Origin: an uncultured bacterium
Lineage (GTDB): Bacteria; Edwardsbacteria; AC1; EtOH8
Assembly (NCBI GenBank): GCA_963780225.1
Contig: CAWAAX010000006.1
Location: forward strand, 18,136 to 82,135
Direction: 5' to 3'
DNA length: 64,000 nt
Shown here: positions 17,291 through 40,008 of the stretch, in pieces
Layout: each line of letters begins with the position of its first letter
Position numbering within the stretch: position 1 is the stretch's first letter
The notes under the pieces: model-generated
What the model was told of the DNA's origin: nothing
The model's input: only the letters and a program-made list of their open reading frames with translations
Database searches by the model: none
Position numbers and translations under genes: made by a program

Positions 17291-18049
17291 ATGATCTACC
17301 AACAACTGCTGAAAACCGCCAAGCAAAAGGGCTCGAATTTCCTGGTCCTTTTGGACCCCGACAAGTGCAAAAAACAGGACGCGGCCAAGATCGGCCAGGC
17401 CTTGAACGACGCCGGGGCCGATGGCATCCTGTTCGGCACCAGCCTGCTGATGTCCAACCAGATCGACGACACCATCAAGGCCTTAAAGCAGAACTTCAAA
17501 CAGCCGGTGATCATATTCCCCGGCAGCGCCTACCAGGTCTCGCCGCACGCCGATGCCATCCTGTACCTGTCGCTGGTCTCGGGCCGCAATGCGGAACTAT
17601 TGATCGGTGAGCAGGTCAAGGCCGCGCCCATGCTGAAAGCCTCGGGCCTGGAGGTGATCCCCACCGGCTACATGTTGATCGAGTCCGGCAAGCTGACCTC
17701 GGCCAACTACATGAGTCACACCATGCCCATCCCCCGGGACAAGTCCGACATCGCCATGGCCCACGCCCTGGCCGCCCGGATGCTGGGGATGAAGCTGATC
17801 TACATGGACGCCGGCAGCGGCGCCCAGCAGAGCGTCCCAGAGGAGATGATCGCCGGGGTGGCCAAATATGCCGAGCTTCCCGTTGTGGTGGGAGGCGGCA
17901 TCAAAACGCCCGAGGACGCCGGGGCCAAGGCCCGGGCCGGGGCCGCCGCGGTGGTGGTGGGGAACATTTTGGAGAAGAAGGGCAACATCAAGACGGCGGC
18001 GGATTTCGCCAGGGCTATTCACTTCAGGGCGAAAACAAACCGGGGCTAA
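17291..18049 (+). CDS. Geranylgeranylglyceryl/heptaprenylglyceryl phosphate synthase family protein (PcrB/GGGPS)
   Basis: 'LVLLDPDK...ADGILFGTS...IIFPGS...LIYMDAGSGA...VVVGGGIKT' follows the GGGPS/PcrB TIM-barrel pattern. A GGAGG RBS precedes the ATG. Confidence 0.7.
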   Translation: MIYQQLLKTAKQKGSNFLVLLDPDKCKKQDAAKIGQALNDAGADGILFGTSLLMSNQIDDTIKALKQNFKQPVIIFPGSAYQVSPHADAILYLSLVSGRNAELLIGEQVKAAPMLKASGLEVIPTGYMLIESGKLTSANYMSHTMPIPRDKSDIAMAHALAARMLGMKLIYMDAGSGAQQSVPEEMIAGVAKYAELPVVVGGGIKTPEDAGAKARAGAAAVVVGNILEKKGNIKTAADFARAIHFRAKTNRG

Positions 18050-18545
18050 CCACGGAAACACGGAATTTATGAAAACACGGAAACATATAAAATGATTTGT
18101 TTGATTACGTTAGGTGTGTTTATATATGAGTATAGTAAGATCTGACCATTTGGAATTAGAAGAATTAACAGGGAATATTATTTCTTGCGGAATAGAAGTC
18201 CATAAAAAACTAGGTCCCGGATTTCTGGAATCGCTATATGAATCTGCTTTGCTGGTAGAACTTCAAAAAAGAGGCTTGCATACCACAAGTCAAAAGGAGA
18301 TCAGGGTATTTTATGACGGATTTGAAATTGGCGTACACCGGCTGGACATTGTCGTAGAGAATAAAGTTATTGTTGAACTTAAAGCGGTCGCTGAACTTGA
18401 CCAATGCCATAAAGCACAGTTGCTGTCATATCTCAAGGCTAGTCATTTAAAAATTGGGTTACTGTTAAATTTTTCTAAAAATATTCTCCAGGTGAAAAGG
18501 ATGGCATATTGATTCCCAGAATTCCTCATTCAGTGTTTCCGTGGT
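18048..18545. repeat. Matched inverted-repeat pair enclosing a GxxExxY gene
   Basis: The left arm aaccacggaaacacggaatttatgaaaacacggaaacatataaa (18048-18091) is complementary to the right arm cagtgtttccgtggt (18531-18545). The core is accacggaaacac. Confidence 0.6.
18126..18512 (+). CDS. GxxExxY family protein, paralog 2
   Basis: 'HKKLGPGFLESLYESAL...IVVENKVIVELKAV' is paralogous to 8443 and 27504. The ORF-track start at 18114 is GTG; the ATG at 18126 is the more likely start. Confidence 0.8.
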   Translation: MSIVRSDHLELEELTGNIISCGIEVHKKLGPGFLESLYESALLVELQKRGLHTTSQKEIRVFYDGFEIGVHRLDIVVENKVIVELKAVAELDQCHKAQLLSYLKASHLKIGLLLNFSKNILQVKRMAY

Positions 18546-18577
18546 AAAATAAATATAACTAAATATAGGAGTCAGCA

Positions 18578-19312
18578 ATGAAAGGCGTCATCTTAGCCGG
18601 CGGCCTGGGATCCAGGCTGCGCCCATTGACCAGCATCACCAACAAGCACCTGCTGCCGGTATACGACCGGCCCATGATCTACTATCCCATCCAGACCCTG
18701 GTGGAGGCGGGGGTACAGGACATCATGCTGGTGACCGGCGGAAACGCGGCCGGGGACTTCTTAAGACTGCTGGGTAATGGCGAGGAATTCGGGCTTAAGC
18801 ACATCAATTACACCTACCAGAAGCGCGAGGGCGGGATCGCCGAGGCCTTGGGCCTCTGCCGGCATTTCGTGGGCAAGGACAAGGTGGTGGTGATGCTGGG
18901 CGACAACATCCTGGACGGATCCATCAAAAAGGCGGTCAGCGACTTCGACAAGCAGGAATCGGGCGCCAAGATCTTTTTAAAGACCGTGGACAACCCAAGG
19001 GAATACGGGGTGGCCGAGCTGAAGGGCCCGCTGGTCAAGAACATCATAGAGAAGCCCAAGAACCCCAAGAGCAACTACGCCGTCATCGGCATCTACATGT
19101 ATGACGCCCAGGTCTGGAACATCCTGAAAACCCTGAAGCCCTCGGGCCGGGGAGAGCTGGAGATCACCGACGTCAACAATGCCTTCATCCAGAAAGGCCA
19201 CATGACCTACGAGATCATCAAGGGCTGGTGGGGCGACGCCGGGTCGTCCATCGAGGACCTGTGGCGGGTCAACCACTACATCGGACAGAAGGCGGAGCGG
19301 GCCAAGCGATGA
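18578..19312 (+). CDS. Sugar-phosphate nucleotidyltransferase (RmlA-like short form)
   Basis: 'KGVILAGGLGSRLRPLTSITNKHLLPVYDRPMIYY' is the NTP-transferase signature. Confidence 0.8.
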   Translation: MKGVILAGGLGSRLRPLTSITNKHLLPVYDRPMIYYPIQTLVEAGVQDIMLVTGGNAAGDFLRLLGNGEEFGLKHINYTYQKREGGIAEALGLCRHFVGKDKVVVMLGDNILDGSIKKAVSDFDKQESGAKIFLKTVDNPREYGVAELKGPLVKNIIEKPKNPKSNYAVIGIYMYDAQVWNILKTLKPSGRGELEITDVNNAFIQKGHMTYEIIKGWWGDAGSSIEDLWRVNHYIGQKAERAKR

Positions 19313-34079: not shown

Positions 34080-34570
34080 GCCAGAGTTCATTCGACATAG
34101 TTTCCAAGATCGATCTTCAGGAAATGAAGAATGCGGTCCAGATGGCCCAGAAGGAGATCATCGGGCGCTTTGATTTCAAGGGCACCAACTGCCAGATAGA
34201 GATCATGGAAGACAAGTTGGTGATCCTGGCCTCGGACGAGTTCAAGCGCAAAAGCATGCTGGACATCATATTCAACAAGGTGGTCAAGCGCGGGATCTCC
34301 ATCAAATCGCTGGAGCAGAAGGAACCCCAGCCGGCCGCCAAGAATTACCTGCGCCAGGAACTGGTGTTCGTGCAGGGGATCCCCATGGACAAGGCCAAGG
34401 AGATGGTCAAACGCATCAAGGCCTCGGGGATCAAGGTCCAGGCCCAGATCCAGGACCTGCAGGTGCGGGTCACCGGCAAGGACAAGGACGACCTGCAGCA
34501 GGTGATCGCGTTGTTCCGGCAGGATGATCTGGGGCTGGCATTGCAGTTCACGAATTATAGGTCTACTTGA
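34076..34570 (+). CDS. yajQ: YajQ family (UPF0234) nucleotide/c-di-GMP-binding protein
   Basis: 'SFDIVSKIDLQEMKNAVQMAQKEIIGRFDFKG' is the YajQ signature. Confidence 0.85.
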   Translation: MSQSSFDIVSKIDLQEMKNAVQMAQKEIIGRFDFKGTNCQIEIMEDKLVILASDEFKRKSMLDIIFNKVVKRGISIKSLEQKEPQPAAKNYLRQELVFVQGIPMDKAKEMVKRIKASGIKVQAQIQDLQVRVTGKDKDDLQQVIALFRQDDLGLALQFTNYRST

Positions 34571-34870
34571 CCGCCCCCTAATCCCCCTCCGTTGCGGAGG
34601 GGGAGATAACCATCCCTCTCCACCCTTCGGCTCTGCTCAGGGCAGGCAATGGAGAGGGGTAGGCGATGCACTGAGAAAGACTGCCTTGATACACTTATGA
34701 AGTGGGAGAGGTCCCACCCGCCGGAAGGCGGGTTTTTTGTTTGACCGCCCCCTCATTCCCCACTTTCGTTTGTCAAAGTGTTCTGCCTTTCTCAGTGCAG
34801 GCTCTCCTGGCAGGAGGGGGAGGCTTGTTTTCCCTCCCCTACCAGGGGAGGGGCAGGGGAGAGGTCCAAA
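34567..34870. repeat. Cluster of GC-rich mosaic palindromic repeat modules (GACCGCCCCCT..CCCC, CTCCGTTGCGGAGGGGGAG, ATCCCTCTCCAC..GGAGAGGG, ACTTTCG..CTCAGTGCAGGC)
   Basis: The same modules recur in both orientations at 36594-36838 and 37224-37374. Confidence 0.7.
34717..34741 (+). terminator. Rho-independent terminator after yajQ
   Basis: cccgcc-ggaa-ggcggg followed by ttttttgtttg. Confidence 0.6.
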
Positions 34871-34929
34871 ATATTCCTTGATTTTGTCCCCCTTTGGTTG
34901 TATTCTTATACTAAATGTAACCATTATTT

Positions 34930-36570
34930 ATGGAGCTTTTTATGGACAACAGGCTTTACTATGGCGACAATCTTGACATTTTACAGCGGCACATAGCCGA
35001 TGAAAGCGTGGACCTTGTTTATCTTGACCCGCCGTTCAACAGCAATGCCAATTACAACGTGCTGTTTAAGGAGAAGGACGGCAGCCAGGCGGCTTCGCAG
35101 ATAAGGGCTTTTGAAGACACCTGGTCCTGGGACCAGGAAGATGAGAGCGTTTTTGCCGAAATGGTTACCAAGGGCGGCAAGGTGGCCGATTGTTTGCAGG
35201 CCTTTAGAACGTTCATGGGGCCATGCGACATGCTGGCTTATTTGGTGATGATGGCTCCGAGGTTAGTGGAGTTGAAAAGGGTGATGAAAAACACGGCCAG
35301 CATTTATCTGCATTGCGACCCCAGCGCTTCGCACTATTTGAAGATGCTGATGGATGCCGTGTTCGGGCCTGCCTATTTTAGGACAGAAATTATCTGGAAA
35401 CGAAGCAGCGCCCATAGCGACGCAAAACAAGGCAGAGCACAACATGGCAGAATACATGATGTGATACTGTTTTATACAAAAACGGATGATTGGTTTTGGA
35501 ATCATATGTTCACTTCATATGATGAGACATACACGGATACTTTCTATAAATATGTTGAACCAGGGACTGGTAGACGATACAGGCTTGACAATTTGACTGG
35601 GCCAGGCGGAGCTGCAAAGGGTAATCCGTCCTATGAAGTTATGGGCATCACTCGGTTTTGGCGGTATAGCAAAGAGAAAATGGATGAATTGATAAAGCAG
35701 GGCCGAATAATTCAAACGAAACCAGGTAATGTACCAGCCTATAAACGATATCTTGACGAAATGCCAGGTGTTACCCTACAAGATGTTTGGACTGATATTG
35801 GGCCTATAAGTTCACAAGCAACGGAAAGACTTGGTTACCCTACACAAAAACCCGAGGTGCTTCTTGAAAGAATAATTAATAGTTCTTGCCCGGAAGGTGG
35901 CCTTGTCCTTGATCCCTTCTGCGGGTGCGGCACCACCATTGCGGCGGCGCAGAAGTTAAACCGCAGTTGGATAGGCATAGACATAACCCACATGGCCATA
36001 ACCCTGATGAAGAAACGCCTGCTGGACACCTTTGGCGGAGAAGCAAAGTTCAAGGTTTTGGGTGAGCCGACCAGCCTGCCGGATGCGGCGGCTTTGGCCG
36101 AGAGCGACCAGTACCAGTTCCAGTGGTGGGCCTTGGGCCTGGTGGACGCCCGCCCGGTGGAGCAGAAGAAAGGCGCCGACAAGGGCATTGACGGCAAGAT
36201 AGTGTTTCAGGGCGATGCGCCGGGGGTGTTCGAGAACGTGGTGATCTCGGTAAAGGCCGGGCATTTGAACGCCAACCATATTAGGGACCTGCGGGGCGTG
36301 GTGGACCGGGAGAAGTCGGCCATTGGGGCGCTGATAGCAATGGAGGAGTTTACCAAGCCCATGCAGACCGAGGCGGCCACGGCGGGGTTTTATGAATCTG
36401 CCACCTGGGGCAAGAAATATCCCAAGATACAACTGCTGACCATTGAGGAACTGCTAAACGGCAGGAAGATAGAGATGCCGCCGATCAAGCAGGTGGAGGC
36501 GACCTTCAAGAAGGCCGAGAAGGTGAAGGGGGGCAAGGGCAAGCAGATGAAGATGGAAGAAAAAGTTTAG
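34930..36570 (+). CDS. Beta-class N6-adenine/N4-cytosine DNA methyltransferase fused to a C-terminal Mrr-like PD-(D/E)XK (restriction-endonuclease-like) domain
   Basis: Motif IV 'LDPPF' near the N-terminus and motif I 'FCGCGTT' about 300 aa later give the beta-class order. The C-terminal ~130 aa 'KGADKGIDGKIVF...VISVKAGH...IRDLRGVVDREKSAIGALIAMEEFTKPMQTEAATAGFY...KIQLLTIEELLNG' follow the Mrr_cat pattern (D-G-I-D-G ... x-x-K ... FT..A ... I.L...EEL). Confidence 0.7.
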   Translation: MELFMDNRLYYGDNLDILQRHIADESVDLVYLDPPFNSNANYNVLFKEKDGSQAASQIRAFEDTWSWDQEDESVFAEMVTKGGKVADCLQAFRTFMGPCDMLAYLVMMAPRLVELKRVMKNTASIYLHCDPSASHYLKMLMDAVFGPAYFRTEIIWKRSSAHSDAKQGRAQHGRIHDVILFYTKTDDWFWNHMFTSYDETYTDTFYKYVEPGTGRRYRLDNLTGPGGAAKGNPSYEVMGITRFWRYSKEKMDELIKQGRIIQTKPGNVPAYKRYLDEMPGVTLQDVWTDIGPISSQATERLGYPTQKPEVLLERIINSSCPEGGLVLDPFCGCGTTIAAAQKLNRSWIGIDITHMAITLMKKRLLDTFGGEAKFKVLGEPTSLPDAAALAESDQYQFQWWALGLVDARPVEQKKGADKGIDGKIVFQGDAPGVFENVVISVKAGHLNANHIRDLRGVVDREKSAIGALIAMEEFTKPMQTEAATAGFYESATWGKKYPKIQLLTIEELLNGRKIEMPPIKQVEATFKKAEKVKGGKGKQMKMEEKV

Positions 36571-36593
36571 GGGTTTGGTTAGAATTCCGCCCC

Positions 36594-36838
36594 AAGCTTC
36601 GGACCGCCCCCCTGCCCCCTCCGTTGCGGAGGGGGAGGGGAGTGTCCCTCTCCACATTGGAGAGGGACAAAGGGAGAGGTCAAAAGCTTCGGACCGCCCC
36701 CTCGTTCCCCCTCCGTAGCGGAGGGGGAATAGGTTGTGTGAATAGTTATGTGTTGATATGTTTGATGATGTAAATAAAACTGATGACGAAATCCCTCTCC
36801 ACAATGGAGAGGGGGAGGGGAGAGGTCGAACCAGGCCA
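36594..36838. repeat. GC-rich mosaic palindromic repeat modules between the MTase gene and the DUF559 gene
   Basis: aagcttcggaccgcccccctgccccctccgttgcggagggggag... occurs twice, and atccctctccacaatggagaggg extends into the 5' end of the DUF559 ORF. Confidence 0.7.
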
Positions 36839-37219
36839 GCCCACCCCAAGGGCAGCACCGGGATTATCAGGCTGCAAAAAGTGAAAAGCAGCAAATTAGA
36901 GTTGGCCAAATATTTCAGACAGCATATGACACTTGGCGAAAGGTGCTTCTGGAATATGACCCGCAAGAACCAGGTCAACGGTTACCGATTCAGACGCCAG
37001 CAGGTGATCCACGGCTTTGTTGCCGATTTCTACTGCAACCAGATAAACCTGGTGGTCGAGATAGACGGCGGCATCCACGAACAGCAGAAGGACTACGACA
37101 AGCTTCGCACAAAAATAATTAACCAGTACGGCATCCGGGTCATACGTTTTACCAACGAAGAAATGATGGATAAAAGCGATTGGGTGTTGGAGAAGTTGAA
37201 GGAAGCTGCGAGAAGTTGA
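36758..37219 (+). CDS. DUF559 (Vsr-like endonuclease-fold) protein; the 5' boundary is uncertain because the ORF's first ~25 codons are repeat sequence
   Basis: 'KLELAKYFRQHMTLGERCFWNMTR...GYRFRRQQVIHGFVADFYCNQINLVVEIDGGIHEQQKDYDKLRTKIINQYGIRVIRFTNEEM' is the DUF559 pattern. Confidence 0.7.
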   Translation: MFDDVNKTDDEIPLHNGEGEGRGRTRPAHPKGSTGIIRLQKVKSSKLELAKYFRQHMTLGERCFWNMTRKNQVNGYRFRRQQVIHGFVADFYCNQINLVVEIDGGIHEQQKDYDKLRTKIINQYGIRVIRFTNEEMMDKSDWVLEKLKEAARS

Positions 37220-37223
37220 TTGC

Positions 37224-37374
37224 CTAAAGCTTCGGACCGCCCCCTCGTTCCCCACTTTCGCTTGTCGTAGTGTTCTGCCTTGCTCAGTGCAGGCACTCCG
37301 TTGCGGAGGGGGAGGACAGACATCCCTCTCCACATTGGAGAGGGATAAAGGGAGAGGTCGAACCCCGCAGGACG
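37224..37374. repeat. GC-rich mosaic palindromic repeat modules downstream of the DUF559 gene
   Basis: ctaaagcttcggaccgccccctcgttccccactttcgcttgtcgtagtgttctgccttgctcagtgcaggcactccgttgcggagggggag...catccctctccacattggagagggataaagggagaggtcgaacc. Confidence 0.7.
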
Positions 37375-37482
37375 GCCCACCAACCCCCTTGCATTTTCAC
37401 CCATCATTTGCGATAATAACGCAAGCCATAATAGACGCCTTTGGCGTCTATTATGCTTTAACATTAAACCACGGAGAAGGTC

Positions 37483-37692
37483 ATGAAGAACAGCACGTTA
37501 CTCTACTGGGCCGGAGTGGTGATCTCATGTCTCAGCGCCTTTTTATTCATATTCAAGGTGCTGCCTCTGACTATAACAGACAAACCGTTGTTGATGTCCA
37601 CCACTTGCATAATCTGCATGCTGGGGGCAATACTCTGCCTGGTGGCGGCTATCTATGAACAGAACAAGGAAAAAACCGGGGGAAAAGAGTGA
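37483..37692 (+). CDS. Small two-TM membrane protein (hypothetical)
   Basis: A GGAGAAGG RBS precedes the start, and there are two hydrophobic helices. Confidence 0.35.
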   Translation: MKNSTLLYWAGVVISCLSAFLFIFKVLPLTITDKPLLMSTTCIICMLGAILCLVAAIYEQNKEKTGGKE

Positions 37693-37877
37693 AGCCCTTT
37701 GTATTCGTTTTTGTTTTGGCCGTTGCGTTAAGCCTGTCCTGCTCCCAAAAGACCGAGCATACCCAGGAAGACATCGGGCCGGTCAAGACCTACAAAACGT
37801 TGAAGGAGCGCACCGATACCATCCAGACCAAGGCCCAGCAGCATTCCAACACGCTGGATTCCATCGCCGCGGACTAA
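37689..37877 (+). CDS. Small lipoprotein (hypothetical)
   Basis: It has a signal peptide with the lipobox 'LSLSC' and overlaps the upstream small ORF by 4 bp. Confidence 0.35.
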   Translation: MKPFVFVFVLAVALSLSCSQKTEHTQEDIGPVKTYKTLKERTDTIQTKAQQHSNTLDSIAAD

Positions 37878-38300
37878 GCACCAAAACCTAAATCCTAAAC
37901 CCTAAACAAATTCCAAATCATAAGCCATAAACCCAAAACAGTTCGTTGTTTTGAGTTTGGCGAATTTATATTTGTTTAGAATTTAGATACTTGCTTCCAT
38001 CGCCGGGCAGTAGGGGCGAAGCACTAAATCCGAAATCCGAAATCCTAAACAATCCCAAATTATCAAAACCTAAAACTCAAAACTGTTTCGTACTTTGTAT
38101 TTAAACAATTAGAATTTGTTTTGAGTTTAGATACTTACTTCTATCGCAGGGCAGCAGGGGCGAAGCCCTAAATCCGAGATACGAAATCCTAAACAATCCC
38201 AAATGACCAAAACCTAAAACTCAAAACGGTTTCGTGCTTTGTATTTAATAATTAGAATTTGTTTTGAATTTAGATATTAGTATTTAGAGATTTAACCAGT
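37878..38300. repeat. Three tandem copies of a ~145-bp highly structured AT-rich repeat immediately upstream of mutL
   Basis: Units start near 37878, 38021 and 38166. Each contains the inverted repeat aaaacctaaaactcaaaac / gttttgagtttag, (g/t)aaatcc microrepeats, and a G-rich tail ctatcgcagggcagcaggggcgaag. Confidence 0.75.
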
Positions 38301-38301
38301 T

Positions 38302-40008
38302 ATGCCGATCATCGTCCTTTCCCCCGAGATAGTCAACAAGATAGCCGCCGGCGAGGTGGTGGAGCGCCCGGCCTCGGCCGCCAAGGAGCTGATGGAGAAC
38401 AGCCTTGATGCCGGGGCCCGTAGCATCGAGGTCGAGGTGAAAGCCGGAGGCCTTGAACTGCTGCGCGTCTCCGATGACGGCTCCGGCATGACCGGCGATG
38501 AGATGGAGCTGGCCCTGCAGCGCCACGCCACCAGCAAGATCAGCAGCTACGAAGACCTGCAGGATATCCACAGTTTCGGCTTTAGGGGCGAGGCCCTGCC
38601 CAGCATCGCCTCGGTCTCCCAGTTCACCATGGTCTCCCGTCCGGCCGGTTCGGACAGCGCCTGGCAGCTGGAATGCCGCGGGGGTGAAATAACATCCCGG
38701 AAACAGCAGGCCGCCCAGCCGGGCACAACCATCACGGTGGAGGAACTGTTCGCCAGCGTTCCCGCCCGCCGCAAATTCTTAAAGAGCCAGGCCACCGAAT
38801 CCCGCAAGATCGCAGAACTGTTTTTGTCTTTAGCCCTAGCCAATCCCGGAACCGGCTTCAAGCTTATCAGCGAAGGCCGGGTAACATACGATCTTAAATC
38901 CACCACCCAAGACGACCGGATCAGGGAAGTGCTGGGCGGAGAGCTTTACCGCACTTTGCTGAAGATAGACTACGGTCAAAAGCCTTTGCGGATATCCGGA
39001 TATCTCTCCGGGCCCCAAAACCTGTGGCCCAAGCGCCGGGAGCAGTACCTCTTCGTCAACGGCCGGCTGGTGTCCGACCGGCTGGCCTCGGCCGCCATCT
39101 ATCAGGGATTCGGTCCGGCCCTGGCCGGCAAGCATCCCAGTTACGTGCTTTTCCTGGAAATATCCCCGTCCCTGGTGGATGTCAATGTCCATCCCTCCAA
39201 GGTGCAGGTGCGCTTCAGCGACGAGTCTTTCGTCTTCCGCACCGTGCGGGCGGCGGTGGAGAAGGCCCTGTTCACCGACCAGCAGCGGCCGGAGACGGCG
39301 GGGGGTCTCAACACTCAAAACACAGGCTACCAGCCCTGGACCGGGCCGGAGCGGCCAGGCCAGCTGCAGATACAGGAAGCCATGGCCCTGTTTGCCTCCG
39401 GAAATCCGGAGCAGGCCGGTCTTAAGAATCTGGTGTCCATCCAGCCGGTGGTGGCCTACTGGCAGCTGCACCAGCGCTACATTCTGGCCGCCATCCGCGA
39501 CGGCCTGGTGATGATTGATCAGCACGCGGCCCACGAGCGGATACTATACGAGGAACTGCTGGCCGCCCGGGACCACAAGCGGGCCCAGCAGCTTTTGTTC
39601 CCGGTGACGGTGGAACTCTCTTCCCGGGAGATGCAGATATACCAGCAGTACCGCGAGGTCTTCGGCTCGCTGGGCTTTGATGTCAAGCAATTCAGCGGAC
39701 AGACCCTGGTGATGGAAGGCCTGCCGGTCTCCTGGGAGCAGAGCGGCGACGGGGCGGCCCTGGTGCGCGGTATTCTGGCCGACCTGGCGGATACTTCTGA
39801 CGTGAACCTGGAGCCGGCCCAGAGACTGGCCCGGTCATTCGCCTGCCGGGCCGCCGTAAAGGCCGGAAAGGCGCTGAACCAGGAAGAGATGAATCATCTG
39901 GTGGACCGGCTGTTTGCCACCAGCTCGCCCTATCTTGACCCCCATGGCCGCCCGTCGGTGATAAAATTCACACTGGAAGACCTGGAACACCGGTTCGGCC
40001 GGATATGA
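38302..40008 (+). CDS. mutL: DNA mismatch repair protein MutL
   Basis: 'IAAGEVVERPASAAKELMENSLDAG' is the GHKL ATPase N-terminus, with a MutL C-terminal dimerisation region. Confidence 0.95.
   Translation: MPIIVLSPEIVNKIAAGEVVERPASAAKELMENSLDAGARSIEVEVKAGGLELLRVSDDGSGMTGDEMELALQRHATSKISSYEDLQDIHSFGFRGEALPSIASVSQFTMVSRPAGSDSAWQLECRGGEITSRKQQAAQPGTTITVEELFASVPARRKFLKSQATESRKIAELFLSLALANPGTGFKLISEGRVTYDLKSTTQDDRIREVLGGELYRTLLKIDYGQKPLRISGYLSGPQNLWPKRREQYLFVNGRLVSDRLASAAIYQGFGPALAGKHPSYVLFLEISPSLVDVNVHPSKVQVRFSDESFVFRTVRAAVEKALFTDQQRPETAGGLNTQNTGYQPWTGPERPGQLQIQEAMALFASGNPEQAGLKNLVSIQPVVAYWQLHQRYILAAIRDGLVMIDQHAAHERILYEELLAARDHKRAQQLLFPVTVELSSREMQIYQQYREVFGSLGFDVKQFSGQTLVMEGLPVSWEQSGDGAALVRGILADLADTSDVNLEPAQRLARSFACRAAVKAGKALNQEEMNHLVDRLFATSSPYLDPHGRPSVIKFTLEDLEHRFGRI

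What the first reader, a model, noticed from the sequence alone, without database searches (positions are those of the whole stretch)
36594..36838. Family of GC-rich mosaic palindromic modules resembling REP/BIME-like elements
At least four module types recombine in different orders: A = (aagcttcg)gaccgcccccYnnTYcccc; B1 = ctccgtWgcggagggggaR (stem ccctccg / cggaggg); B2 = actttcgYttgtc..gtgttctgcctt.ctcagtgcaggc; C = atccctctccacaWtggagagggRYaaagggagaggtcRaa (stem ccctctcca / tggagaggg). Module A occurs at least five times and B1 and C at least four times within 3 kb. Module C is read into the 5' end of the DUF559 ORF, which makes the annotated start unreliable. Such elements can act as terminators, mRNA stabilisers or recombination substrates.
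Basis: seen in the sequence. Interest (0 to 1): 0.5.

Follow-up and report, generated by a model that had tools for sequence, protein, structure and literature searches.

The report
BoxC-like triplex-motif repeats bracketing nuclease island
The GC-rich modules are real copies of a known kind of bacterial repeat (BoxC/PIT "intrastrand triplex" motifs) that mark the junctions of a strain-specific methylase plus DUF559-nuclease insertion, and follow-up showed that DUF559 nuclease genes sit inside such repeats in many phyla.

Summary
Five copies of one composite unit, all on the + strand, lie in three clusters (34569-34866, 36594-36830, 37226-37362) and nowhere else in the 64 kb.

[quoted passage not shown] A+B1 form one motif on the minus strand and C+GGGAGAGGTC form one on the plus strand. 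B2 and an AT-rich segment are optional inserts. This is the architecture of E. coli BoxC/PIT/TMECO elements, not of REP/BIME.

The units bracket a 2.86-kb insertion (N6/N4 methylase-Mrr fusion and a DUF559 nuclease). That insertion is absent from one related strain and replaced by a different restriction-modification set in another. Relatives of the units are dispersed, mostly intergenic, across many phyla.

One apparently unreported result emerged. In 24 DUF559 loci chosen without regard to repeats, 14 (strict) to 19 (relaxed) carry such motifs within 350 nt, against 2 to 5 of 65 control windows. E. coli ycjD is among them.

Best reading: these are DNA-level, structure-prone repeats that act as cassette junctions and are probably tied functionally to DUF559 nucleases. 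A terminator role is not supported.

The parts
34569..34713 (+). Unit 1a. A at 34569-34578. Minus-strand triplex motif (TM) at 34571-34604. Its plus-strand motif is disrupted: C-left 34613-34623, a 25-nt loop insert, C-right 34649-34659, an inverted B2-like insert 34660-34703, then GGGAGAGGTC at 34704-34713. The yajQ stop codon overlaps the TTGACC left end.
34716..34743 (+). Canonical intrinsic terminator (stem plus T-run) between units 1a and 1b. It is separate from the repeat units.
34743..34866 (+). Unit 1b. A at 34743-34752, B2 at 34762-34802, variant B1 hairpin at 34803-34822, plus-strand TM at 34832-34864 with compensatory stem changes, GGGAGAGGTC at 34857-34866.
34930..36570 (+). Cassette gene 1: an N6_N4 DNA methyltransferase fused to an Mrr_cat/NA-iREase1-like C-terminal domain.
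36594..36684 (+). Unit 2a, the compact form. AAGCTTCG lead-in, A at 36602-36611, minus-strand TM at 36604-36635, plus-strand TM at 36645-36680, GGGAGAGGTC at 36672-36681.
36685..36830 (+). Unit 2b. A at 36692-36701, minus-strand TM at 36694-36728, AT-rich central insert at 36729-36791 (holds the ATG at 36758), plus-strand TM at 36792-36826, GGGAGAGGTC at 36818-36827.
36758..37219 (+). Cassette gene 2: the DUF559 (Vsr-like PD-(D/E)XK) nuclease ORF. The Pfam domain starts at about 36896. The start codon is unresolved: either ATG 36758, which reads through the plus-strand TM, or GTG 36884. The public 87-aa call is too short.
37226..37362 (+). Unit 3. A at 37235-37244, B2 at 37254-37294, B1 at 37295-37313, plus-strand TM at 37323-37358, GGGAGAGGTC at 37350-37359. 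Its first 28 nt are 100% identical to 36683-36710, so identical sequence flanks DUF559 on both sides.
34567..37429 (.). The whole strain-specific insertion, about 2.86 kb. It is absent from a related strain (L001), where yajQ is followed directly by the small membrane-protein gene. In UBA5202 (L038) the orthologous site holds other genes, including a C5-methylase, and keeps the unit-3 right half and tail.

Best explanation
The flagged region is two tandem copies of a composite unit that in its compact form is about 80-90 nt. Five copies exist in the window. [quoted passage not shown] A TM is a C-rich stem, then the complementary G-rich stem, then a third G-rich block that mirrors the second.

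This is the architecture of the E. coli BoxC / PIT / TMECO repeats. The window's family is a lineage-specific member from Candidatus Edwardsbacteria/UBP2. It has two optional inserts: B2 inside triplex loop 2, and an AT-rich segment in the central spacer.

Shown:
- The units lie exactly at the borders of, and between, the two genes of a 2.86-kb insertion. That insertion is present, absent or replaced among close relatives.
- The family is dispersed, mostly intergenic, and biased towards gene 3' ends.
- The mirror (triplex-compatible) geometry is conserved across lineages with different stem sequences.
- DUF559 nuclease genes are specifically embedded in such motifs in many phyla.

Inferred:
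- The units act at the DNA level. Single strands exposed during replication or repair would fold into hairpin or triplex structures that stall forks or attract nicking. This would make the units preferred break-and-rejoin points where cassettes (here a methylase and a DUF559 nuclease) are inserted, duplicated with long target repeats, swapped or lost.
- The DUF559 nuclease is the protein partner of the repeats. The repeats would be its target or its termini.
For: Motif identity and geometry:
- My triplex-motif finder is modelled on ITxF but not identical: 8-nt stems, at most 1 mismatch, loops of 1-8 nt. It gives 7 motifs in the window, all inside the three clusters and arranged as minus/plus pairs. 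It gives 0 in 20 Markov-1 simulated windows.
- Among asymmetric C-rich hairpins in all fetched DNA, the third block is mirror-only in 110 cases and direct-only in 10.
- Both DNA strands of unit 2a fold well beyond shuffled controls (z -5.2 and -5.5). In the isolated motifs the third block stays unpaired.

Dispersal:
- The exact 21-mer of module C hits 102 loci in many phyla, against fewer than 1 expected.
- Most hits carry conserved ACCTCACCCC and/or GGGGTGAGGT arms: left 65, right 77 and both 44 of 109. The exact 10-mers occur 140 times against 1.4 expected.
- Same-type units occur at other loci of Edwardsbacteria/UBP2 genomes and in metagenomes.
- Context: 87 of 109 are intergenic, convergent gene pairs outnumber divergent pairs 20 to 6, and the median distance to a gene 3' end is 80 nt.

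Variable island:
- An empty site is seen in L001 and a different restriction-modification set in L038.
- Long target duplications are seen beside related elements: about 55 nt of the radA 5' end in L095 and 26 nt in L060.

Published properties of the class (PMC4666352):
- The motifs are intergenic and form inverted pairs.
- A stable triplex forms in vitro.
- They show no promoter or terminator activity.
- TMECO loci are more rearranged between E. coli strains than control sites.

DUF559 link:
- DUF559 is the only recurrent family among the 128 scanned ORFs flanking the elements: 4 hits, while nearly all of the 175 families found are singletons.
- In 24 DUF559 loci picked from the protein side, a strict motif lies within 350 nt in 14, against 2 of 65 control windows (p = 2e-8). 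With relaxed criteria the counts are 19 of 24 against 5 of 65 (p = 1e-10).
- E. coli ycjD has the published TMECO no. 9 168 nt downstream.
- ycjD occupies a locus that holds the eefRABCD operon in other phylogroups (PMC12817139). The ycjD region is present in 3377 of 5426 complete E. coli genomes.
Against: - Triplex formation in cells is unproven. The published in vivo footprinting on TMECO did not detect it.
- In this 64-kb window the units occur at one locus only, so copy number in the source genome is unknown.
- No clean filled-versus-empty pair for a single unit was found, and no target-site duplication beyond controls. Unit mobility is therefore not shown.
- The strict TMECO consensus is not met.
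- The link between DUF559 and the motifs is positional. No data show that the nuclease binds or cuts them.
- The geometry varies between lineages: unit-gene-unit, TM(+)-gene-TM(-) and TM(-)-gene-TM(+).
- E. coli phylogroups D, E and F, where ycjD is mostly replaced by eef, still carry 6-13 TMECOs.
- Several sampled DUF559 loci are related to each other, so the effective sample is smaller than 24.
Confidence: 0.6

Rival explanations
1. The triplex-motif repeats are passive. They spread and decay by slippage and recombination and simply accumulate in permissive intergenic hotspots. Accessory genes such as DUF559 and methylases also land in those hotspots. On this view there is no functional link to the nuclease and no role in creating the island.
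For: - The neighbours of the elements are otherwise a random assortment of housekeeping genes.
- The published work found no functional class among flanking genes and no regulatory activity.
- The arrangement of motifs around DUF559 differs between lineages.
- E. coli phylogroups D, E and F, where ycjD is mostly replaced by eef, still carry 6-13 TMECOs.
Against: - Enrichment next to DUF559 is strong against control windows in the same loci (14-19 of 24 against 2-5 of 65).
- It recurs in at least 8 phyla, with DUF559 proteins only about 35-40% identical to the window's.
- DUF559 is often wedged between genes of conserved operons together with its motifs: sufB|sufC, pntAA|pntAB, paaD|paaZ.
- Another small nuclease gene in the window (PDDEXK_3, 18126-18512) has no such motifs.
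Confidence: 0.22
2. This is the first reader's view: REP/BIME-like extragenic palindromes that act mainly at the RNA level as terminators or 3' mRNA stabilisers and are spread by a REP-associated transposase.
For: - The stems are GC-rich and stable, with RNA fold z-scores of -1.9 to -5.9.
- The elements are biased towards gene 3' ends.
- Unit 1a lies in the yajQ 3' UTR, upstream of the terminator.
Against: - No U-tract follows the stems, and a separate terminator follows unit 1a. Unit 1b lies after that terminator and before the methylase promoter-like site.
- There is no conserved GTAG, and no RAYT or other transposase among the 128 scanned flanking ORFs.
- The third block mirrors the hairpin arm, a relation that ordinary Watson-Crick RNA pairing does not explain. 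Purine-motif triplexes do not form in RNA, and PIT elements showed no terminator activity (PMC4666352).
- No Rfam family matches at its gathering score.
Confidence: 0.08
3. The part of the repeat next to DUF559 is a functional part of that gene. It would be either a translated N-terminal extension (IPLHNGEGEGRG...) or a 5' leader that controls its translation.
For: - Homologues have open frames through the same modules in the same frame (P0001-P0018).
- The extra insert in L095 is 42 nt, a multiple of three.
- The right arm sits 5-8 nt before start codons in L060 and L095, like a ribosome-binding site.
Against: - Most copies are not next to DUF559.
- Close homologues start after the repeat (P0024).
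- In other lineages the motifs lie upstream of, downstream of, or on both sides of the gene.
- The same units also flank the methylase.
Confidence: 0.07
4. This is a purely local duplication confined to this locus.
For: Within the 64-kb window all copies lie in 2.8 kb.
Against: Same-type units lie on at least 7 other genome loci and 15 metagenome loci. Sequence relatives occur in 102 loci across phyla.
Confidence: 0.02

Closest known systems
[quoted passage not shown] 2015, PMC4666352)
   Same: - Three-block C-stem, G-stem and mirror-G-stem layout with short loops.
- G/C-rich, with stems of the CCCTCTCC / GGAGAGGG / GGG(A/T)GAGG type.
- Paired copies on opposite strands.
- Intergenic and multi-copy.
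- Located at strain-variable loci.
   Different: - The strict TMECO consensus is not met: the window has 8-nt stems and loop 2 of 3-5 nt (5 nt in units 2a and 3) instead of 3.
- The pair order here is minus then plus, with the outer arms facing outward. The published E. coli pair 1+2 is plus then minus.
- Extra modules are present: the AAGCTTCG lead-in, B2 in loop 2, and the AT-rich central insert.
- The host is an uncultured candidate phylum.
- The published work reported no associated gene, whereas here the repeats bracket a DUF559 nuclease and a methylase.
REP / BIME elements with RAYT transposases (Enterobacteria, Pseudomonas)
   Same: - Short GC-rich extragenic palindromes.
- Clustered mosaic arrangements.
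- Bias to gene 3' ends.
- One associated gene is typically flanked by the repeats, while most repeat copies are solitary.
   Different: - No GTAG motif and no Y1 transposase.
- The units lie in direct tandem.
- A mirror third block is present.
- The core is conserved across phyla rather than being species-specific.
- The candidate partner is a PD-(D/E)XK nuclease.
Insertion with long target duplication of restriction-modification genes (Kobayashi laboratory; recalled from memory, not read here) and Neisseria intergenic mosaic elements / minimal mobile elements (also recalled from memory)
   Same: - Restriction-modification-type genes sit between conserved genes.
- They are flanked by direct repeats tens of nt long.
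- Content differs between strains at the same site.
   Different: Here the flanking repeats are members of a dispersed triplex-motif family rather than only duplicated target sequence.
Rfam Whalefall-1 RNA motif (RF01762)
   Same: A CUCUCC/GGAGAG hairpin followed by AGgGuGAGGAC. Modules C and GGGAGAGGTC align to it.
   Different: The score is 16.7 bits against a gathering score of 37. That family is described as a non-coding RNA known only from a metagenome.
Homing endonucleases with a Vsr-like fold (EDxHD family, I-Bth0305I; recalled from memory)
   Same: A small PD-(D/E)XK/Vsr-like nuclease gene sits as a solitary insert inside or between conserved genes.
   Different: No intron or intein context. 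The target is not known. The closest solved structure is 3HRL, an uncharacterised 'endonuclease-like protein'.

Membership tests
G/C-rich intrastrand triplex motif repeats (BoxC/PIT/TMECO class) | Three consecutive blocks on one strand: a C-rich stem, the complementary G-rich stem, and a mirror G-rich stem, separated by short loops. | tested here: met
   7 motifs in the window, all within the flagged clusters. None in 20 simulated windows.
G/C-rich intrastrand triplex motif repeats (BoxC/PIT/TMECO class) | The strict TMECO consensus, CCCTCNCCC N3-6 GGGNGAGGG N3 GGGNGAGGG. | tested here: not met
   The regular expression finds none in the window. It does find copies in E. coli L125, Synechocystis L126 and L108.
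G/C-rich intrastrand triplex motif repeats (BoxC/PIT/TMECO class) | The third block mirrors the hairpin arm rather than repeating it directly. | tested here: met
   Mirror-only 110 against direct-only 10 among asymmetric hairpins in all fetched DNA.
G/C-rich intrastrand triplex motif repeats (BoxC/PIT/TMECO class) | Intergenic, multi-copy, with paired copies on opposite strands. | tested here: met
   Minus/plus pairs in units 2a and 2b. 87 of 109 relatives are intergenic. Several loci per genome in relatives. Copy number in the source genome itself could not be counted.
G/C-rich intrastrand triplex motif repeats (BoxC/PIT/TMECO class) | Association with strain-variable regions. | tested here: met
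   The island is absent in L001 and replaced in L038.
G/C-rich intrastrand triplex motif repeats (BoxC/PIT/TMECO class) | The single strand physically forms a triplex. | not testable with these tools
   This needs CD, NMR or melting experiments. It is shown only for the E. coli sequence, in PMC4666352.
REP/BIME | A conserved GTAG or similar tetranucleotide at the 5' side of a 20-40-nt palindrome. | tested here: not met
   Read directly from the sequence. GTAG occurs only in the loop of one B1 copy.
REP/BIME | An associated RAYT (Y1 transposase) gene flanked by the repeats. | tested here: not met
   Of the 128 flanking ORFs scanned, none of the 25 listed families is a transposase (175 families matched in all, nearly all singletons), and DUF559 tops the list. 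This was not tested genome-wide.
MITE | Terminal inverted repeats plus a target-site duplication. | tested here: not met
   Arm-like inverted ends exist, but flank identity is no greater than in controls.
Integron attC | R''/R' core sites (RYYYAAC ... GTTRRRY) and a nearby integrase. | tested here: not met
   The unit ends are TTGACC ... GGTC(A/G)AA. None of the genes adjacent to the island is an integrase.
Intrinsic terminator | A GC-rich stem followed by a U-tract. | tested here: not met
   Neither the B1 stems of the other units nor any C stem is followed by a T-run. The scan reports the separate terminator at 34716-34743, which is clearly outside the units, and one weak hit on the variant B1 hairpin of unit 1b at 34802-34822 (tail GCTTGTTTTC); four hits in all, no more than in shuffles (mean 3.8).
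Rfam families (including Whalefall-1) | A score at or above the family's gathering threshold. | tested here: not met
   No hit in the window or in 20 loci. Whalefall-1 scores 16.7 bits against 37.

The most novel reading that the evidence does not exclude
DUF559 (YcjD-like, Vsr-fold) nucleases may be the missing protein partner of BoxC/PIT/triplex-motif repeats across bacteria.

On this reading the nuclease gene travels inside the repeats. It cuts or nicks the folded or duplex motif, acting like a homing endonuclease or a RAYT. That activity would drive both the spread of the repeats and the cassette gain, loss and rearrangement seen at such loci.

This would explain the unexplained 'genomic instability' of TMECO sites and give DUF559 a function.
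Probability: 0.33. Interest if true: 0.8.

Novelty: new member of a known kind. Interest (0 to 1): 0.55.

Why it matters
On their own, the modules are a lineage-specific member of a repeat class known since the 1990s, here found in a candidate phylum. That part is ordinary.

Two things give it value:
- It offers a clean natural example of such repeats sitting exactly at the joints of a restriction-modification/nuclease island, with empty, filled and replaced alleles all available for comparison.
- It led to a reproducible, cross-phylum positional link between these repeats and DUF559 nuclease genes, including E. coli ycjD. The main published study of the repeats reported no gene association.

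If that link is functional, two long-standing unknowns become directly testable in E. coli K-12: what BoxC/PIT repeats are for, and what DUF559 does.

Tried and rejected
- **Rfam.** Gathering-threshold searches of the window and of 20 loci, plus an E-value search of the region, gave only chance-level microRNA hits and a sub-threshold Whalefall-1 match.
- **Literature search by sequence.** Searching for the arm sequences returned only primer lists. Searches on DUF559 plus repeat terms found nothing relevant.
- **Target-site duplications.** None beyond controls.
- **Outer-arm pairing as an RNA stem.** In the window type the arms pair imperfectly, with G.A and C.A mismatches on the + strand and no clear wobble asymmetry. 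I dropped this as a discriminator.
- **Alternative pairing of C-left with the last block (an attenuator idea).** Rejected, because the mirror relation cannot make an antiparallel duplex in asymmetric stems.
- **Phage carriage.** One viral contig hit for module C, and no DUF559 relative in viral contigs.
- **Metagenome scan for A+B1.** Only 15 loci.
- **Single-unit filled versus empty site.** The orthologous intergenic site in L061 and window 17974-18578 shows different inserts inside a shared inverted repeat, not a clean single-unit insertion.
- **Correlation of TMECO number with ycjD across E. coli phylogroups.**
  - Counts are 13-30 (mostly 18-30) in groups A, B1 and C, and 0-2 in B2.
  - They are 6-13 in groups D, E and F.
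  - The pattern is suggestive but confounded by phylogeny, and I assigned phylogroups from memory.
Full report
**1. What is in the sequence**

Reading 34500-39500 and the repeat finder show one composite unit present five times, always on the + strand.

| Unit | Coordinates |
|---|---|
| 1a | 34569-34713 |
| 1b | 34743-34866 |
| 2a | 36594-36684 |
| 2b | 36685-36830 |
| 3 | 37226-37362 |

- The order of parts never changes: [AAGCTTCG] GACCGCCCCC..CCCC (A), optional B2 (41 nt), hairpin B1 (CCCCCTCCG NNN CGGAGGGGG), a spacer, hairpin C (TCCCTCTCCA CAT TGGAGAGGGA), 3-5 nt, then GGGAGAGGTC.
- Pattern searches over the whole window find each part only here and far above shuffled expectation.
They are not blocks that shuffle.
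- Unit 1a carries two inserts, one in the C loop and one before the last block. Unit 2b carries a 63-nt AT-rich insert between B1 and C.
- Unit 1b has variant hairpins with compensatory changes, for example CCCTCCCCT/AGGGGAGGG.

**2. Gene context and the island**

- The ORFs and Pfam matches give this order:
  - ftsK, lolA, yajQ (ends at 34570);
  - units 1a and 1b;
  - an N6_N4 methyltransferase fused to an Mrr_cat-like domain (34930-36570);
  - units 2a and 2b;
  - a DUF559 nuclease (ORF 36758-37219);
  - unit 3;
  - two small genes, then mutL.
- A contig from a related strain (L001; YajQ 100% identical, DNA 89% identical) runs from yajQ straight into the small membrane-protein gene. About 34567-37429 is therefore an insertion.
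- A closer relative, UBA5202 (L038; MutL 95.6% identical), holds different genes at the same spot, including a C5 cytosine methylase. It then has one unit, and then the same downstream genes.
- The units thus mark the joints of a strain-variable restriction-modification-type hotspot.
- A canonical terminator (34716-34743) follows unit 1a, and a promoter-like site (34884-34912) precedes the methylase. Unit 1b therefore lies in a probably untranscribed gap.

**3. Is the family found elsewhere?**

- The exact 21-mer of module C matched 102 loci among species-representative genomes. I estimate fewer than one hit by chance.
  - The hosts include Chloroflexota, Bacteroidota, Myxococcota, Spirochaetota, deltaproteobacterial MAGs, Gemmatimonadota, Firmicutes and Proteobacteria.
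  - Seven loci come from Edwardsbacteria/UBP2 genomes.
- In most hits the hairpin is nested between ACCTCACCCC and GGGGTGAGGT(C). Of 109 hairpins, 65 have the left arm, 77 the right arm and 44 both. The exact 10-mers occur 140 times against 1.4 expected.
- Units of the window's own type (GACCGCCCCC ... GGGAGAGGTC) occur at other loci of Edwardsbacteria DeMMO3_1, UBA5202 and UBA2255, and in 15 metagenome loci. Hybrid units link the two arm types.
- With a crude ORF map, 87 of 109 copies are intergenic. Convergent gene pairs outnumber divergent pairs 20 to 6, and the median distance to a gene 3' end is 80 nt.
- No target-site duplication beyond controls was found. The motif is essentially absent from viral contigs.

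**4. Identification with a known class**

- While checking E. coli ycjD (section 5), I found the same kind of sequence downstream of it. A literature search then led to Holder et al. 2015 (PMC4666352).
- They describe BoxC, also called PIT elements or TMECO: CCCTCNCCC N3-6 GGGNGAGGG N3 GGGNGAGGG.
  - This is a C-rich stem, its complementary G-rich stem, and a second G-rich block that can lie in the groove as a purine-motif third strand.
  - E. coli K-12 has 23 copies. All are intergenic and several form inverted pairs.
  - The oligonucleotide forms a stable triplex in vitro.
  - Earlier work found no promoter or terminator activity.
  - TMECO loci are more rearranged between E. coli strains than control sites.
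  - No functional class of flanking genes was found.
- I wrote a finder using criteria modelled on theirs but not identical: 8-nt stems, at most one mismatch, loops of 1-8 nt. The window has seven motifs and simulated windows have none.

| Motif | Strand |
|---|---|
| 34571-34604 | - |
| 34832-34864 | + |
| 36604-36635 | - |
| 36645-36680 | + |
| 36694-36728 | - |
| 36792-36826 | + |
| 37323-37358 | + |

- A+B1 is therefore one motif read on the minus strand, and C+GGGAGAGGTC is one on the plus strand. A unit is an opposed pair.
- B2 always sits between an outer arm and its hairpin, which is triplex loop 2. It keeps the same orientation relative to the motif, here and in six other loci.
- The strict TMECO pattern is not met in the window. 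This is a different member of the class.
- The third block is related to the hairpin arm as a mirror image far more often than as a direct repeat: 110 against 10 among asymmetric stems.
  - Ordinary Watson-Crick pairing does not require that relation.
  - Different lineages keep it with different stem sequences, for example GGGGGAGG/GGAGGGGG in Deinococcus and GGAGAGAG/GAGAGAGG in Neisseria.
- Both DNA strands of unit 2a fold well beyond shuffles (z -5.2 and -5.5). In the isolated motifs the third block is left unpaired.
- No Rfam family reaches threshold. Whalefall-1 resembles C plus the last block at 16.7 bits against 37.

**5. The DUF559 connection**

- Homologues of the window's DUF559 often have predicted N- or C-termini that read through the same modules, for example LTAPISPSDAEGE..IPLHNGEGEGRG and PSPHWRGTKGEV.
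- Among the 102 pattern-selected loci, every DUF559 gene present abuts an element. These are L018, L032 and L060 as well as the Edwardsbacteria-type loci.
- A Pfam scan of 128 ORFs flanking the elements gave 175 families, nearly all singletons. DUF559 was the top recurrent family (4 hits), and none of the 25 listed families is a transposase.
- I then sampled DUF559 genes from the protein side, without regard to repeats.
  - Four lineages came through the protein collection.
  - E. coli ycjD was added.
  - Nineteen further loci came from plasmid and chromosome records in Cyanobacteriota, Alpha-, Beta- and Gammaproteobacteria and Deinococcota.
- Results for those 24 loci:

| Criteria | DUF559 loci with a motif within 350 nt | Control windows at least 1.5 kb away in the same loci | Fisher p |
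|---|---|---|---|
| Strict | 14 of 24 | 2 of 65 | 2e-8 |
| Relaxed | 19 of 24 | 5 of 65 | 1e-10 |

- The published TMECO no. 9 (1,351,204-1,351,239) lies 168 nt downstream of ycjD, next to a roughly 45-nt duplicate of the gene's own 3' end.
- The arrangement varies between lineages:
  - whole unit on each side of the gene (window; Sphingomonas L135);
  - plus-motif, gene, minus-motif (L143, L144);
  - minus-motif, gene, plus-motif (Deinococcus L136 and L140; Synechocystis L126).
- DUF559 is often wedged between genes of conserved operons: sufB|sufC, pntAA|pntAB, paaD|paaZ, the hpa operon, and gatB-yqeY|dnaG.
- It also often lies next to DNA methylases: the window, L060 in Anaerolineae (same gene order, methylase 40% identical), L119, and the BREX and DUF1156 methylases in cyanobacterial plasmids.
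- Long direct duplications of target sequence flank related insertions.
  - About 55 nt of the radA 5' end is duplicated around unit-DUF559-motif in L095.
  - 26 nt is duplicated in L060.
  - In the window, 28 identical nt occur at 36683 and 37226, on either side of DUF559.
- In E. coli, ycjD occupies the sapF-fabI site that holds the eefRABCD operon in other phylogroups (PMC12817139). The ycjD region is present in 3377 of 5426 complete genomes.
- Published TMECO counts are 13-30 (mostly 18-30) in strains I know as phylogroups A, B1 and C, 0-2 in B2, and 6-13 in D, E and F. This fits a link but is confounded by phylogeny, and I assigned phylogroups from memory.

**6. How it most likely works**

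Shown:
- the identity of the architecture;
- dispersal of the family;
- placement of the units at cassette joints;
- allelic variation of the island;
- conserved mirror geometry;
- the positional link to DUF559.

Inferred:
- The units act as DNA rather than RNA. Three points support this. Purine-motif triplexes do not form in RNA (PMC4666352), unit 1b is probably untranscribed, and published tests found no terminator activity.
- Exposed single strands would fold into hairpin or triplex structures that stall forks or attract nicking. The units would then become preferred break-and-rejoin points.
- The DUF559 nuclease may recognise or cut these structures, or use them as its termini. This last step is the least secure, because nothing here shows binding or cleavage.
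- The main rival is that repeats and accessory genes merely co-accumulate in permissive hotspots.

**7. The DUF559 start codon**

- The Pfam domain begins at about 36896. The public 87-aa call starts at 36956 and truncates it.
- The candidates are ATG 36758, which translates the plus-strand motif as IPLHNGEGEGRG, or GTG 36884.
- Two points make read-through plausible but unproven: homologues keep the same frame through the motif, and the L095 insert is a 42-nt multiple of three.

**8. Verdict**

- The REP/BIME label is close in spirit but wrong in detail.
- The element is a new member of the BoxC/PIT/triplex-motif class, sitting at the joints of a variable methylase-DUF559 island.
- The cross-phylum link between DUF559 and these motifs is the part worth following up.

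Noticed in passing
window 37880-38280: Three tandem copies of an AT-rich repeat of about 144 nt (79% identity) lie between the small lipoprotein gene and mutL. They contain CTAAATCC/GAAATCC sub-repeats and internal inverted repeats.
   Followed up: no
window 18126-18512 (flanks 18040-18075 and 18530-18545); L061 2048-2419: A small PDDEXK_3 (GxxExxY-type) nuclease gene sits in an intergenic gap. It is bounded by the inverted repeat CCACGGAAACAC / GTGTTTCCGTGG. At the orthologous site in Edwardsbacteria DeMMO3_1 the same inverted repeat encloses a different insert, which includes a minimal A-C-GGGAGAGGTC unit. No triplex motifs flank the PDDEXK_3 gene.
   Followed up: partly
L095 5380-6100 (minus strand): A unit-DUF559-motif cassette is inserted in the first codons of radA. 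About 55 nt of the radA 5' end is duplicated, so an intact radA restarts right after GGGAGAGGTC. There the last block is placed like a ribosome-binding site.
   Followed up: partly
L125 7200-7420 (E. coli K-12, 1,351,200-1,351,420): About 45 nt of the ycjD 3' end is duplicated downstream of the gene, between its stop codon and the published TMECO no. 9. A degenerate CCCTCTCCC...GAGGGGG hairpin overlaps the stop codon.
   Followed up: partly
L144 2893-3378; L143 2932-3386; L140 2900-3422: DUF559 genes with their flanking motifs are wedged between adjacent genes of conserved operons. These are sufB|sufC and pntAA|pntAB in Sphingomonas, and paaD|paaZ in Deinococcus. This is the behaviour of a selfish insert.
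   Followed up: partly
L126 2343-4867; L127 2953-6312; L141 2917-5605; L139 1897-6279: In cyanobacterial plasmids DUF559 lies directly next to, or apparently inside, DUF1156 or BREX PglX methylase genes. In L126 a DUF1156 gene looks split around it. In L139 a CDS that runs off the stretch shown (more than 1,400 aa) is annotated simply as DUF559.
   Followed up: no
window 37322-37359 and 34830-34866: The Rfam Whalefall-1 'RNA' motif aligns weakly to module C plus GGGAGAGGTC. Its consensus (CUCUCC hairpin, then AGgGuGAGGAC) looks like the same triplex-type repeat class, so that family may be a DNA repeat rather than an RNA gene.
   Followed up: partly
L120 and L121, position 1: Two independent assemblies break about 157 nt upstream of the same DUF559 gene, inside its flanking repeat. 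This is consistent with the repeat being multi-copy in those genomes.
   Followed up: no
window 34930-36570: The methylase carries a C-terminal Mrr_cat / NA-iREase1-like domain. Anaerolineae locus L060 has the same methylase-then-DUF559 order with repeats interleaved, at 40% protein identity. This suggests a conserved two-gene module.
   Followed up: partly
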